From Ginglymostoma cirratum (Eukaryota): a DNA stretch of 64,000 bases. The stretch is taken from assembly GCA_024137785.1 (NCBI GenBank), contig JAHRHZ010000140.1, positions 21,647,451 through 21,711,450 on the forward strand. The letters are read 5' to 3'. Position 1 is the first letter of the stretch, and each line of letters starts with the position of its first letter. Positions 39,001 through 45,000 of the stretch are shown here, one piece after another. A program made the position numbers.

Positions 39001-42000
39001 GGTATCAGGCGCGTGCAATGTTTTTCACTGTGATTTTATTGAAATGAGTTACTTGTTTCCATTTGATAACTCTGAACCCAAGGGCAGAAAGGTCATGCTT
39101 TACAAAGCAGTTACCGTTTCTTACAATGCACGTATGTTTATTGAGAGGTCTTAAGCATCACTCTTTTCAGCAAAAGAAATCAATTTGTACTTATAACAGT
39201 TCAGTCTAAAATAGAAGAGTTTCACAGAGTCCACAGTACAATGACTGAACTCTGTGTGGGATGCGCATGCCAGACAGGACAAGAAGTACAAGGAAAGTTA
39301 ACTGACAGGCAATGATCGATTGGTGTTTCAGGTTGACAAATTCCAGCAGTACAAGACATCTGCCAAGCATGTGACCTGATAAACAGCAGCACCAAGGCTC
39401 AAATACAAGCATTCATTTCAATGTAAACCAGAAAGCAGTCGTGTGCAAGCTAAAGAATACGAATTGCAGGAAACAAAGTTAGACAATTTTATACATTCAC
39501 AATAAAAGGTCTACTTTTTTTGAAATGATAGTATTTTCGTGGCCTTCAAAACGCAAGGAAAATGACAACAGATCCTATGTGCCTATCATTTTGCCCACAG
39601 CGCTTAGTAACATTAATGTAGCAACAGCAAAATTACCATATTAAGTGATTAAGCAACAAAATACTGTAAAGGTCTCTTAATGGGAACACCTGCATGGAGA
39701 GCAAAATGTTTCCTTTATCCAAATACTACTGAACAGGTATAAAGATCTTGAGTGGCAATCAGATGCATATTGGAGGTGTTGAAAACTGAAGTTATTAACC
39801 GATCTTTAACAGTATGTTTGCAATATCTTAGGGAATGCACAACTATTCCATTGCATGCATTAGACGTTTGTTGACCAACACAATCAAAGAGAATCCTGAT
39901 CAACCCCGATTACGAATGGTCCTAAGCACTTGACTAAACAGATTTACCGACTACATCTGTTTATCTCTCTTGACTCTATCATGGAAGTTTCAGTTTGCAA
40001 CATCAGCCAAAATATTCAACAGAAACAGTCACGTCATTACAGCACACTTGGATTAAATTAAGCCATCAAGTGAATGTAACTTCTCAATTGTCAATGGCTT
40101 CCCTCTCAGGAGGTACACTGTAAATAATAACAATAAAAATTATGTCCAGCCAACACATGGGGGATGTGGGTGAGAGAGTGAAGAAATTCTTAAAAATGTT
40201 GCCTCGAAAAGTACCTTCCAAAGGTTAAATTCAAGTTTTGGAATGATAGAACTATATTTAATGTTCTTTAAAAAAAAAAGCTCACATTCACAGTAACACA
40301 AGTTCAGATCACTACAAATTTAGTGCTTTTCTTCCTTCATGTTAAAAATGCAACTTGAAACTTTTGGGCATTATCACTTCAACACCGAGAAGTTGCATAA
40401 GGCTTCACTGTACGTTAAGCTTAATGTTTTAACCAATTCTCACAGGAATGCTTATGGTTTGCTGTAAAATACCCCGTAACACACTTTACATATTTATGTA
40501 TTTGATACTTAAATACCAGTAGATACCATGTATCTGAGTGAAATACAATCATAATATAAAAATGTCTAGTTAGTTAATTATAATGGAGGAAGGAGAAAAT
40601 CACAGGGAACATTCATTAAAAAATAATAAAACTTCAGTCTTAAAATGCTCATTTTATTCGTGCTGTTGGTATGTTCAGAACATCTGGCATTAATTTTGTT
40701 CATAGCAGGAAAAAGACAGCCCCACAGCAGTGGAATACATATACAAATGAAAACCTCAACCTACATACATACTGAAGAAAAACATTAGATTTGTTTTTAA
40801 ATCCAATCAGAATGCATAACATTAGACCTAAATCGCCATTTCGGTACATTCTAAAATATCATTGAATGGAAGGCTTTTGTTACACTACCCCACAGTGAAC
40901 GGAGACATGCCAAAACCTCAAAAGTGAGGTTTTCCTGTAAACTCAAAGACTGTTCAGAAATGCTCTGCATATTCCCTTTTAAACAGTAAATAAAATCTTC
41001 TGCTGCTTCACAAAAATCTAAATGAAAATGTGCACATTCAAAAACAGCAACTTGCTGTCTAAGATTCTACAAAGTATCTATTATATGAGATGCGCCACGC
41101 TTAAAATAATTTAAGCATTTTCAAATACACTTATAATGAGTGAACCTTCAAATATCAAATTATTGTGTGAAATCTGGAAAGTATTAATACACAATGTACA
41201 AGTTTTCAAGGGGAAAGAAATGCAAGAAAGAACGGCAACGCTGTTTTTGCACTTGAATATGTGAAGCAATTCTGTTCATGAGATAACTTTAAAGCATTTT
41301 GCTTTTCACGATCCAAATGATGACGTTGTATCAGTTAACAATAAATAGTTAATTAAGAAAAAAAATGCAACTTTACTCATTCATTGCCCTTCAAAATAAT
41401 AAGCTTTTTGTACAAAAAAAGCCTGGTTTTACACTTGGTTTTATACATCATTTGCACTCTGTTGCATTCAAAATAGCTCCAAGAACTGAGTCACATAAGC
41501 AACTCATCCGATACATCGAATATATTTCATTTAAATTCCGGAAGCAGAGTTTAACTGAATTGATGCAGGACAGTGGAACGTTGTAATGAGTCTGTTTACA
41601 GTTCTAAAATGTAAATTCAGAGTGTAGAATATTCCATACTAAACAGTTATCAGGTAAAAATCAGTATTGAGCTGGTTAAAACAACTTTTCTGGAGAAAAG
41701 CCAGTCATGCTGCCTGCAACTGGATTTCCCTTTTTGTTTCTTCTTCACAGAAGAGATTCTTCTGAACGTGGCAACACAAAGGTCACAGTTTCAAGTATTG
41801 GATAGAAGGTTGCTACCTTAGCTGACCACCTCTTAACCACAGTAACTGGTCTTATCTGAAGCCCATCGGTTGAAATAAAATACAAACGTGCACTGTAGCA
41901 GATAGTAACTTACCCAGCTGTTTAGATTGAGATGCCAGCAACCAAACTGATGGAGAAAGGAGAGCCCAGAGGCTAGCGTTCCTCCTTTATTGTTCCCTTC

Positions 42001-45000
42001 TTCCATTCCCAGCAAAATCGCATCCCTCGGGTACATGCTGCTTTATCTTCTGTTGTCTCTTAACCTCTACAACTTTCCCCCCCTTTCTCTGTCTCCTTGG
42101 TGCCGACTGCGCTTTGTATCTTTGTGGTTTTGCGAGTGCCCCCCTTTTTTTTTAAAGGAGGTTACTAAAAAAATGTCTTAAAATATCAAGAGCTTTCCAG
42201 TTCTGTGACCTGGTGTTTTTAGAACCAACATTCTCATTCACGGTTGCCGTTAGTAGCATCTTAGTCCTGGTGTAGTCCTATATCTGCCGTACAGCAGATA
42301 CCAAAATTGAGGACACACTGAAACGATAACATAGATCACTGCACCAAAATGCTCACTTAGAAATGAGTAAGACCGCACACATGGATATAACCCCATGCGT
42401 ACTATTTATTTTCTTTTCAAAGCCTATAACTCTCCTAGGATTACCAAAATGACAATGCTGCAACTCTAAATGGAAAGGTGTCAATAAGTGCAGCAGTGAG
42501 GAGACAAGCATTGGTTAAGGGAGCATGATCAACAAACTGTAGCATGCAGTCACATCTGTGGGAATGTCAAATCCCTCACGCTGAACTTCTGGGGATGGAG
42601 CTCAGAGAATGCTCTTTTTTTGACACAGTGACATTATAATATATATCATACATATACGTAGTCATACACTCAAAAATATAAAAAATATATGTAAAAAAGA
42701 CACCTGTGAGGTCTTGCCATCAGTCGCAGCAGGCTTTTTTATTATAACAGTAAATAGGGTGGAGAAAAGGCAAAGCACTAGACCTCACTGCAGCTTCAAC
42801 TGGCTGACCTCGGCTACACACAATATACAAGAGCAGCTTTTGTATTGCAAGGATTCTCTTTCCGAGTTGCTTTTTGCATACTGCTTCCCGTCGCTAATTG
42901 CATCCCCAAACAAAACCCTCTCCATCTCCAAATTGGGGGGCAGCTCATATGTTCCAGTAAATGCCTTTCACAATAGAAGCAAAAGTAATGAAACGCTCCC
43001 ATTAACTGTGACACCCCTCCCACCCCCAAAACCATGAGTAAAGGTGGCTCACAGCCTACAATATCCTCCCATCTCCAAAAACCACTCAACTTATTAAAAA
43101 CAAACTTTATACGTATCCAGTTTTAAACTCGTTCAGCAAAATCCACAGAACCTGTCACATACCTTTCCTTACCATCTTATCTGTCTATTAAAAACTGACA
43201 AGACACGAGAACAGGGGAAACAAAACAGTATGCAGTTTTTCCCTCTTTATTTAATGCTCTGCACTAATCTGGCCTTCGCGTGCAAAGTGTCGGCCAGAAA
43301 TCTTTTAGGCCTTAATACCAAAACAAAACCTTTGAATTCCCTTTATATGGTGCAATACAGGCGCTAACAAAGGCAATGAGGCTACAGTTTGACATGTAAA
43401 AAGCCCAACAACGAAGCAGCTAATTACATTCCCTCCCTCTATTCATGGTGGCCACCACACTCCAGCAGCTTCCTTTGTCACACGTGCAATTTCTTAAGTA
43501 AACTGGGAGTTTGGTTGCTGATGATGGACAGTTACTAATCATTTAGCACAATGAATGCTAAGTACGGCAGAAAGGATGGGCAACTTCAACACAGATTTCT
43601 TTGGGATTGGAGGATGCGAGAAGAAAAAGAAGCAGGAGGAAAGCTCGCCACACAGACGACGAAAGGTGAACACTTAAAATACCAGACGCTTTCAGTCCAC
43701 ATATTTACCTTACATCTATTGAAGGAGGGGGTGGTAGTGGTGGGGGCGATGTGGAGGGGAAGGCAAAAACACACTGTGGGAAAGAGAGACTGCAAATCAA
43801 ACTTGCCAACTCAGATCAACTTCAGCCATTATAGCAAGGGGAAAGAAAAATTCTGAATACTTCCATTACTCAGTAGTTTCTTTTGCCCAGAAAAGTTTGC
43901 CTTAAATCTCAATTAAAACAAAACGCACCGTAAAAGCACAATTCATCTAGAAGTCATATTTGTAAGTGGAAATAATACTCTAAGACATTCAACCCTTCGT
44001 AAAATTTGCTAACTTACCATTTACACCTGCTCAAATTACGATGCTTCACACTGCCTGAATTCAAGCATGCTGCCGTTCCCGTGCTACAGCACAAATCAGC
44101 CAGCTCTTCACGATGTGGGCAGATCCACTGGGGGGCAGCACCCTACCTGAGCCACTTACAGCCGAGATGCTGCTGAGATAGGGACACGAAGCGTTTACAT
44201 CCAACTCCAGCTCTCCGGGAAAAGATGCTCAAGTTCAGGTTTATTCAGTGAATTACCTTGCTTCATGGGAAAAAGATAATGAGATGGCAACACTCATTTG
44301 ATCAGAACCAGTCCCGAATCACTAACAGTTCAGAAAGGAACAAAAGAATAAGAGTTGCTTGCCTTCTTGGCAACATGAAAACCAGTTTCAACCTCTTATA
44401 AATATAAATTGGCTCATATTTTGAAGCAAGAGACAAAAAAGAAAAGAATTTCCTTTCTCACCCCTCCCTTTCCCAAGATGTAAAGACTAACGTACCGTCT
44501 ATTTTGCCCACGTAACCAGATCAATTTAAACAGTTTCATCAGGAAAAGTAGAACTATGAAATAATTTTGATACATCAATTGCAAGTTTTAAGATAACGGC
44601 AACTTAACAAGTTATATGTCCGTGCTCTAATATTTGTCACAGCCAAACATGGCAAGCAGTTCCATAAAGCTTCACTGCCCACTTTTGAAGCCTGCGTTAC
44701 TAACACACGCAGAATGACACCACTGAGCGCCTTTAAAGGATACTAGGGGAAAAAAATGACTATTGATCTTCAAATGGTGATAATTGAAAAGATCAAAAGA
44801 TTAAACAAAATCAAAAAATGCGCTGACTTACCATGTTATGCTTTTTTTTGTTACAACTTGGTTGAAATTTCAGTCAAACAAGCTTCATCGGAGGTGTCAA
44901 ATTTTTGGCGGACTGTGATCGTATTACTTCCGCAGCCTTGCCTCACAATACTTCAGAACTTTTTACCTAGCTTTGGTTTACTTTGAAAGCTGCAGCTCAG

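What the first reader, a model, noticed from the sequence alone, without database searches (positions are those of the whole stretch)
41914..42036. Alternative N-terminus of 41 aa (MYPRD...HQFGCWHLNLNSW) for truncated TCF7L2
Unlike its three neighbours, this candidate exon adds a real peptide in frame with SNKV. It has a good Kozak -3 A, a second in-frame Met at codon 11, and a W/C/H-rich end. It could give one truncated isoform a distinct interaction or degradation module rather than being a pure deletion variant.
Basis: partly seen in the sequence, partly recalled or inferred. Interest (0 to 1): 0.65.

Follow-up and report, generated by a model that had tools for sequence, protein, structure and literature searches.

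The report
Conserved leader exon of short TCF7L2
The 41-codon reading frame is real and is the cartilaginous-fish copy of a leader exon that starts the short, beta-catenin-blind form of the Wnt transcription factor TCF7L2 in vertebrates from skates to mammals, so it is genuine but already annotated elsewhere.

Summary
On the minus strand, 42036-41914 reads ATG plus 40 codons and ends at TGG|GTAAGT. That is phase 0, matching the phase-0 acceptor of the SNKV exon at 31127.

The sequence alone is not significant: 26% of 300 shuffled introns give an equal ORF plus donor. Cross-species evidence settles it.

- The peptide alone hit one named protein, TCF7L2 isoform X18 of the little skate (XP_055502842.1). 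It starts with the same 41 residues (38/41 identical, no gap), joined directly to SNKV.
- Searching with that skate protein's first 86 residues, 45 of 120 listed rows cover leader plus SNKV exon. They include squamates, chicken, platypus, rodents, stoat, sturgeon, teleosts and frogs.
- Of the 32 leader-bearing proteins inspected, 28 have exactly 41 residues before the junction. M1, Y2, G24 and W41 are invariant.

The exon lies in the intron where mouse and Xenopus have the internal promoter for dominant-negative/short TCF7L2 (passages in PMC3825142, PMC4963812, bioRxiv 10.64898/2025.12.27.696670).

Verdict: a genuine, deeply conserved alternative first coding exon, already known as an annotated isoform. 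The function of the leader peptide is untested. Met11 and Cys33 are not conserved.

The parts
41914..42036 (-). Coding part of the alternative first exon: ATG plus 40 codons, the 41-residue leader of short TCF7L2.
   Evidence: Translation. tblastn of the named skate protein P0003 places residues 1-41 at 42036-41914 with 38/41 identical. Aligned with 28 named vertebrate leaders.
41908..41913 (-). 5' splice site GTAAGT after TGG (phase 0).
   Evidence: In orthologous models the leader ends at the same Trp and continues with SNKV. One non-RefSeq lizard model reads on past that Trp for 7 more residues, beginning V-S. In the window GTA AGT likewise translates to V-S.
42037..42228 (-). Putative 5' leader/promoter-proximal stretch: 192 nt without any ATG, with an in-frame TAA at 42043-42045. 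The transcription start is not mapped.
   Evidence: only 2.7% of 661 inter-ATG gaps are this long, and there is no CpG island (CpG o/e 0.4-0.5). Sequence. Its role as a leader is inferred.
30995..31127 (-). TCF7L2 exon encoding SNKVPVV...DPKT(G), the acceptor of the leader exon. This is exon 6 in the numbering I recall from the mouse literature. The last Gly codon is split (G|GTAGGT).
   Evidence: 45/45 residues identical to named shark and skate proteins.
10249..10351 (-). Next TCF7L2 exon (IPRPPHPSD...GWLVP-Q), with a second, internal donor TG|GTTAGT before LVPQ.
9573..9659 (-). Following TCF7L2 exon (QGQPVYPITTGGFRHPYPTALTVNASMS).

Best explanation
The ORF is the coding part of a conserved alternative first exon of TCF7L2.

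Proposed mechanism:
- Transcripts start at an internal promoter in the long intron upstream of the SNKV exon.
- They include this exon and splice from the GTAAGT donor at 41913 to the acceptor at 31127, 10.8 kb downstream.
- Translation from the ATG at 42036 puts a 41-residue leader in place of everything encoded upstream of the SNKV exon, including the beta-catenin-binding domain.
- The rest of the protein (the HMG box and so on, encoded outside this window) is unchanged.
- The product is the short (S-, or dominant-negative) TCF7L2. It can occupy TCF sites but cannot recruit beta-catenin.

Shown here: the ORF, its splice signals and phases, its orthology to annotated leaders in many vertebrates, and the residue-level conservation.

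Inferred: that the promoter and donor are used in this species, that the leader is translated, and the dominant-negative or beta-catenin-independent action. The last is taken from mouse and Xenopus literature.
For: 1. Anatomy: ATG, 41 open codons, TGG|GTAAGT donor, phase-0 acceptor with a strong pyrimidine tract.

2. First hit: the peptide alone, searched against longer proteins, gave 1 hit among 6 candidates. It is TCF7L2 isoform X18 of Leucoraja erinacea (E 7e-18). The leader occupies residues 1-41 and is followed at once by SNKV. That protein maps collinearly on the window: 1-41, 42-86, 86-125 and 120-150 fall at 42036-41914, 31127-30993, 10352-10233 and 9661-9569.

3. Breadth: a search with residues 1-86 of that named skate protein found 3795 proteins with E<=0.001 among 3868 candidates, of which 120 were listed. 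45 of the 120 cover at least 99% of leader plus exon, and the rest mostly 52% (exon only). The 45 include squamates, chicken, platypus, stoat, rodents, sturgeon, many teleosts and five frogs.

4. Inspection: 36 named non-human rows were fetched, 31 with high coverage and 5 with lower. All 31, plus the skate, carry the leader, and none of the 5 does. 28 of the 32 have exactly 41 residues before the junction. Two pipefishes have 35, one goby 58 and one lizard model 48, all in frame.

5. Conservation, in 29 aligned sequences (window plus 28):
- Invariant: M1, Y2, G24, W41.
- At least 90%: R4, G10, G32, W34, L38.
- Identity to the window: 93% skate, 73% chicken and lizard, 61-71% mammals, 59-63% most teleosts (pipefishes and goby 51-60%), 41-54% frogs.

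6. Independent search: an index-free phmmer search of 1.84 billion representatives gave 22 hits at E<=0.001, all spanning query residues 1-41. 12 of the 22 start at their own residue 1.

7. Domain content: Pfam on the skate isoform matches only positions 138-222 of the 222-position CTNNB1_binding profile, plus an HMG box. The beta-catenin-binding part is absent.

8. Start region: 192 nt without an ATG lie upstream of the start.

9. Literature, passages read: Tcf7l2 has an internal promoter in intron 5 that gives truncated, dominant-negative or short isoforms in mouse and Xenopus. These are abundant in embryonic thalamus (PMC3825142, PMC4963812, bioRxiv 10.64898/2025.12.27.696670).
Against: - No transcript, CAGE or junction data for this species were available, so use of the donor here is inferred from orthologues.
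- Most orthologues are automatic gene models. Such pipelines place the start at the first ATG of the longest frame and can copy models between species. The models therefore show that the frame is open, not that it is translated. Species where the frame is broken would not appear in this sample.
- The only protein-level test I could run was inconclusive. I compared the mean BLOSUM62 of the replacements with simulated neutral drift of the window exon. It was better than neutral for zebrafish (0.0105 of simulations as good) and one frog (0.0074). It was no better for sturgeon, cichlid or Xenopus (0.42-0.46), and the comparisons are not independent.
- The sequence alone is not significant.
- No Pfam family matches the leader, and there was no usable ESM Atlas hit.
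- The AlphaFold2 model is of low confidence: mean pLDDT 62.8, pTM 0.27.
- The elephant-shark row listed (P0085) lacks the leader, which says nothing either way about that genome.
Confidence: 0.88

Rival explanations
1. The exon is real and transcribed, but its conservation serves DNA or RNA functions (promoter-proximal elements, 5' leader, splice donor). The open frame is incidental. The short protein would then start at a downstream Met, and the annotated leader would be an artefact of longest-ORF annotation.
For: - The replacement-quality test was inconclusive.
- Most orthologues are automatic models.
- W41's codon overlaps the splice site.
- TCF7L2 introns are known to hold conserved non-coding elements (my own knowledge, not tested here).
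- The structure model has low confidence.
Against: - At 41-73% residue identity the frame stays open with the same ATG in all 32 leader-bearing models inspected. The only length changes are whole codons: -6, +17, and +7 in one non-RefSeq lizard model.
- Neutral drift of the window exon to the same identities keeps frame plus ATG in only 10-32% of simulations per lineage for chicken through Xenopus. Ascertainment weakens this argument.
- A 192-nt ATG-free stretch ends exactly at this ATG.
Confidence: 0.09
2. A chance ORF next to a chance GTAAGT in a long intron, with no biological role.
For: 26% of 300 shuffled introns contain an equally long ATG ORF ending in phase at GTRAGT. With any GT as donor, 33 ORFs of 41 or more codons exist.
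Against: The same 41 residues, joined to the same exon, occur in a named skate model (38/41) and in 31 other named vertebrate models. There are also 22 full-length phmmer hits, down to E 4e-13.
Confidence: 0.01
3. An internal cassette (poison) exon included between the upstream exon and the SNKV exon, rather than a first exon.
For: None found. The transcription start is not mapped here, so an upstream non-coding exon cannot be excluded.
Against: - The 30 nt upstream of the ATG are purine-rich, with no pyrimidine tract before any AG.
- An in-frame TAA sits three codons upstream.
- 29 of the 32 leader-bearing models inspected start at this Met, counting one python model whose frame starts 10 residues upstream in the same exon context. 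One darter model has a 67-residue upstream extension.
Confidence: 0.02

Closest known systems
Short / dominant-negative TCF7L2 (S-TCF7L2, dnTcf7l2) from the internal promoter in intron 5 of mouse and Xenopus Tcf7l2 (Vacik, Stubbs & Lemke 2011, cited in PMC3825142 and PMC4963812; bioRxiv 10.64898/2025.12.27.696670)
   Same: - Same gene and same intron (the one directly upstream of the SNKV exon).
- Same outcome: a protein without the beta-catenin-binding domain.
- Rodent models (deer mouse, Chinese hamster, marmot, guinea pig) carry the homologous 41-residue leader joined to SNKV.
   Different: - This copy is from a cartilaginous fish.
- The Vacik paper is not held in the library. I could not check which of its alternative first exons corresponds to this one, or whether it describes the leader peptide.
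- Expression and regulation (Vax2, diencephalon) are untested here.
RefSeq model XP_055502842.1, transcription factor 7-like 2 isoform X18, Leucoraja erinacea (P0003)
   Same: Identical architecture: a 41-residue leader, then SNKV. 38/41 leader residues are identical, and the next three exons map collinearly on the window.
   Different: There are three leader replacements (F27L, L28F, S40N), and one in the next exon: SPGTVGQ in the window against SPGAVGQ in skates. The window is therefore another cartilaginous fish, not this skate.
dnTCF7 (dnTCF-1) and dnLEF1, N-terminally truncated paralogues made from internal promoters
   Same: [quoted passage not shown]
   Different: They are different genes with promoters in other introns (intron 2 for LEF1). 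No leader homologous to this one was seen outside TCF7L2: all 45 high-coverage rows that show a protein name are TCF7L2 or unnamed hypothetical proteins.

Membership tests
Orthologous leader exon of short TCF7L2 (vertebrate 'MY...W|SNKV' isoforms) | About 41 codons starting at ATG, with a homologous sequence | tested here: met
   38/41 identical to the skate, and 41-73% identical to 27 other named leaders, over the full length. M1, Y2, G24 and W41 are invariant. 28 of 32 database leaders are exactly 41 residues.
Orthologous leader exon of short TCF7L2 (vertebrate 'MY...W|SNKV' isoforms) | Ends at a phase-0 donor and is joined directly to the SNKV exon | tested here: met
   The window has TGG|GTAAGT and the acceptor CAG|TCT AAT AAA GTA, both phase 0. 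The junction W|SNKV is seen in 30 of the 32 database models; one icefish-relative model joins 3 codons later and one lizard model reads 7 codons into the intron. The junction in this species' RNA was not observed.
Orthologous leader exon of short TCF7L2 (vertebrate 'MY...W|SNKV' isoforms) | Lies in the intron directly upstream of the SNKV exon, same strand | tested here: met
   It lies 10.8 kb upstream of 31127 on the minus strand. tblastn of a named full-length shark TCF7L2 finds only the SNKV exon and the two exons after it in the window, so no canonical exon lies between them.
N-terminally truncated (dominant-negative/short) TCF/LEF isoforms | [quoted passage not shown] | tested here: met
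   For the skate orthologue, Pfam CTNNB1_binding matches only profile positions 138-222 of 222, and the HMG_box is present at 208-276. For the window this follows from exon order; the HMG-box exons lie outside the window.
N-terminally truncated (dominant-negative/short) TCF/LEF isoforms | Transcribed from an internal promoter | not testable with these tools
   No transcript or CAGE data were available. The only indirect signs are the 192-nt ATG-free stretch, the lack of an acceptor-like sequence upstream, and the absence of a CpG island.
N-terminally truncated (dominant-negative/short) TCF/LEF isoforms | Antagonises or acts independently of beta-catenin at TCF target genes | not testable with these tools
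   Known for mouse and Xenopus from the literature passages read. The 2025 preprint reports redundancy with the long isoform, rather than antagonism, in embryonic thalamus.

The most novel reading that the evidence does not exclude
The leader may be a functional module in its own right, not a passive by-product of promoter choice. It has been kept since before cartilaginous and bony vertebrates split.

- It has an invariant Met-Tyr start.
- It has a conserved hydrophobic core (G24-L-S-L-L-Q-Q-x-G-x-W-H-L-N-L-x-x-W41), weakly predicted to be helical.

This module could set the stability of short TCF7L2 or give it a partner. From my own knowledge, untested here, a Met followed by a bulky hydrophobic residue can act as an N-terminal degradation or acetylation signal. 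If so, the short isoform would be more than a deletion variant. I found no paper describing the peptide: one search returned 0 papers for its first six residues, and one search showed nothing relevant in the 12 rows listed of 161. The key 2011 paper, and supplements in general, could not be read.
Probability: 0.35. Interest if true: 0.5.

Novelty: already known. Interest (0 to 1): 0.2.

Why it matters
TCF7L2 is the main nuclear effector of Wnt/beta-catenin signalling in brain and gut, and a major disease gene. Its short isoform decides whether TCF sites respond to beta-catenin.

This result shows that the leader exon of that isoform, and so very probably the internal promoter, was already present in the common ancestor of cartilaginous and bony vertebrates, with its length and a core of residues preserved.

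For annotating this window, the exon should be called as a coding first exon. For biology, the only open point is what the conserved 41 residues do. The class of isoform, its position and its general action are already described.

Tried and rejected
- Peptide against proteins of similar length (22-72 aa): no candidate.
- ESM Atlas by features: no usable hit, and no structure search was possible.
- Pfam on the leader: 0 families at E<=1.
- AlphaFold2 with the 29-row alignment: mean pLDDT 62.8, pTM 0.27, helices 3-12 and 19-38. Confidence is too low for a fold search, so none was run.
- Cluster of the skate protein: 15 of 34 members were listed. The other 14 listed all start with the canonical N-terminus, so no further leader-bearing species came from it. 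19 members stayed unseen.
- Replacement-quality test against simulated neutral drift: inconclusive.
- Literature on the peptide itself: 0 papers for its first six residues. A search on exon 1b, alternative first exon and unique N-terminal with Tcf7l2 showed nothing relevant in the 12 rows listed of 161. A search on dnTcf7l2/Vax2 listed no paper holding 'dnTcf7l2' among the 10 shown of 535. Vacik et al. 2011 is not held. PMC8651982 and PMC6772062 gave no detail on the intron-5 exons.
- Idea of a metal-binding Cys/His/Trp end: rejected as a conserved feature, because Cys33 is kept in only 17 of 29.
- Idea that Met11 is a conserved second start: rejected, 13 of 29.
- Joined window model: the leader was never joined to the SNKV exon, searched or folded as one sequence. 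This means an exact look-up of this species' own isoform was not made.
- The 21 unnamed hits were not fetched, because they could come from any vertebrate, including people's samples. Their taxa are therefore unknown.
- No vertebrate genome or transcript collection was available, so codon-level conservation and junction reads stayed unchecked.
- The N run at 35111-35510 was left as it is.
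Full report
**Observation**

- An in-frame TAA lies three codons upstream.
- The start context is TAAAGCAGC ATG TAC: -3 is A, +4 is T.
- The frame ends at TGG|GTAAGT.
- The exon that begins SNKVPVV starts at 31127, behind TTTCTTTTTGTCCTTCTTTTGACAG, in phase 0. The two therefore fit in frame.
- The window holds two further TCF7L2 exons downstream, at 10351-10249 and 9659-9573.
- There is an N run at 35111-35510, which I left alone.

**Chance**

By itself the feature is not remarkable.
- The 32,873 nt of this strand upstream of 31127 contain 18 GTAAGT sites. 4 have an in-frame ATG ORF and 1 reaches 41 codons.
- Allowing any GT gives 33 ORFs of 41 or more codons among 1963 sites.
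- In 300 dinucleotide shuffles the mean count of such ORFs at GTRAGT was 0.31, and 26% of shuffles had at least one.
- One local feature is unusual: 192 nt upstream of the ATG contain no ATG, a gap length reached by 2.7% of 661 gaps.
- There is no CpG island.

**Related sequences, searched exon by exon**

The leader alone, searched against longer proteins, gave 1 hit among 6 candidates: TCF7L2 isoform X18 of the little skate (XP_055502842.1, 482 aa). Its first 41 residues match 38/41 without a gap and are followed directly by SNKV.

Other searches with the leader alone:
- The near-length search found nothing.
- An index-free phmmer search of 1.84 billion representatives gave 22 hits at E<=0.001, three of them at E<=1e-10. 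All span query residues 1-41, at 56-73% identity. 12 of the 22 begin at their own residue 1.
The exception is P0034, fetched once a later call named it.

To get named orthologues I searched with residues 1-86 of the named skate protein. It found 3795 proteins at E<=0.001 among 3868 candidates, with 120 listed.
- 45 of the 120 cover at least 99% of the region. The rest mostly cover 52%, the SNKV exon only.
- The 45 include squamates, chicken, platypus, stoat, four rodents, sturgeon, many teleosts and five frogs.

I fetched 36 named non-human rows, 31 with high coverage and 5 with lower.
- All 31, plus the skate, carry the leader. None of the 5 does.
- 28 of the 32 have exactly 41 residues before the junction.
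- Two pipefishes have 35, a goby has 58, and one non-RefSeq lizard model reads 7 residues into the intron, beginning V-S as GTA AGT would give.

I aligned the window with 28 of the 32. Left out were a python and a darter with upstream extensions, the lizard read-through model, and a second zebrafish isoform with the same leader.
- M1, Y2, G24 and W41 are invariant.
- R4, G10, G32, W34 and L38 are at least 90% conserved.
- Positions 14-16, 20 and 23 vary freely.
- Met11 is kept in 13 of 29 and Cys33 in 17 of 29.

**Which organism**

The closest leader is the skate's. However, the next exon reads SPGTVGQ, as in named whale-shark/basking-shark, devil-ray, stingray and numbfish proteins, and not SPGAVGQ as in skates and catsharks. 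The window is therefore a cartilaginous fish other than those skates. It is not human: the leader is 61-71% identical to mammalian ones.

**What it is and how it works**

The exon sits 10.8 kb upstream of the SNKV exon, with no canonical exon between them. A named full-length shark TCF7L2 maps only residues 163-272 onto the window.

From passages I read:
- Mouse Tcf7l2 has an internal promoter in intron 5 that produces truncated isoforms lacking the beta-catenin-binding domain.
- These make up about 70% of Tcf7l2 mRNA in embryonic thalamus (PMC3825142).
- The variant also exists in Xenopus and blocks beta-catenin/TCF reporters (PMC4963812).
- A 2025 preprint places the start sites in intron 5, with expression in diencephalon and dorsal midbrain. 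It reports redundancy with the long isoform in embryonic thalamus (bioRxiv 10.64898/2025.12.27.696670).

That the SNKV exon is 'exon 6' in that numbering is my recollection of the mouse literature. It is consistent with rodent models carrying this leader spliced to SNKV.

Pfam on the skate isoform matches only the last third of the CTNNB1_binding profile (positions 138-222 of 222), plus the HMG box.

So the best explanation is that an intronic promoter drives a transcript that begins with this exon. The 41-residue leader replaces the beta-catenin-binding N-terminus, and the product binds DNA without responding to beta-catenin. Promoter use, translation of the leader and the functional effect in this species are inferred.

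**Is the peptide itself selected?**

The evidence is suggestive but not shown.

For:
- Across 41-73% identity, every inspected model keeps the ATG and the frame, and length changes are whole codons.
- Simulated neutral drift of the window exon to the same identities keeps frame plus ATG in 10-32% of runs for chicken through Xenopus.

Against, or neutral:
- Gene models are an ascertained sample.
- The replacements were milder than neutral for zebrafish (0.0105 of simulations as good) and a frog (0.0074). They were not milder for sturgeon, cichlid or Xenopus (0.42-0.46).
- No Pfam family matched and there was no Atlas hit.
- AlphaFold2 gave a low-confidence two-helix model, pLDDT 62.8.

Codon-level analysis needs genomic DNA of other vertebrates, which no tool here offers.

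**Novelty and score**

The isoform class is in the literature, and the leader is annotated in dozens of vertebrate RefSeq models, including a skate. The finding is correct but already known.

I found no paper describing the peptide, but the key 2011 paper is not held and supplements are closed. What the conserved leader does remains an open, modestly interesting question.

**Left out**

Noticed in passing
window 44832-44834 and 44018-44020, minus strand: There are two sites where an ATG is followed at once by GTAAGT: ...GCATAACATG|GTAAGTCAGC and ...GGTGTAAATG|GTAAGTTAGC. They lie 2.0 and 2.8 kb upstream of the leader exon. Together with the 41-codon exon they look like a cluster of alternative first exons.
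   Followed up: partly
window 48231-48314, minus strand: Another ATG ORF (28 codons) ends in phase at TAT|GTAAGT. A 3-codon ORF ends at ATG|GTGAGT at 54362-54370. There is no evidence either is used.
   Followed up: no
window 10249-10261, minus strand: The exon ending GWLVPQ has two donors: TG|GTTAGT before LVPQ and CA|GTAAGC after it. This fits the presence or absence of LVPQ in named vertebrate isoforms; a guinea-pig model lacks it.
   Followed up: partly
window 62150-62341, minus strand (also ORFs at 62467-62688, 24312-25483, 6832-7387, 13808-14023): There are retroelement debris in the introns. One ORF matches Pfam RVT_1 weakly (E 2.6e-5, 24.4 bits, below the 29.6 cut-off). The other ORFs tested gave no Pfam match, though some read like reverse-transcriptase fragments by eye.
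   Followed up: partly
window about 54949-55359, about 35511-35593 and 30454-30660, minus strand: Three ORF translations share a similar short peptide string (...HSRP.S..GAGKL...VSGLDPS...). This suggests copies of one interspersed repeat, possibly a SINE. One copy abuts the N run.
   Followed up: no
database protein P0086 (Apteryx rowi TCF7L2 isoform X3), not in the window: This kiwi model joins a different, unrelated 39-residue N-terminus to the SNKV exon. At least one other coding first exon in this intron is therefore annotated in a bird.
   Followed up: no
window 35111-35510: A run of 400 N lies inside the intron between the leader exon and the SNKV exon. It was left untouched.
   Followed up: no
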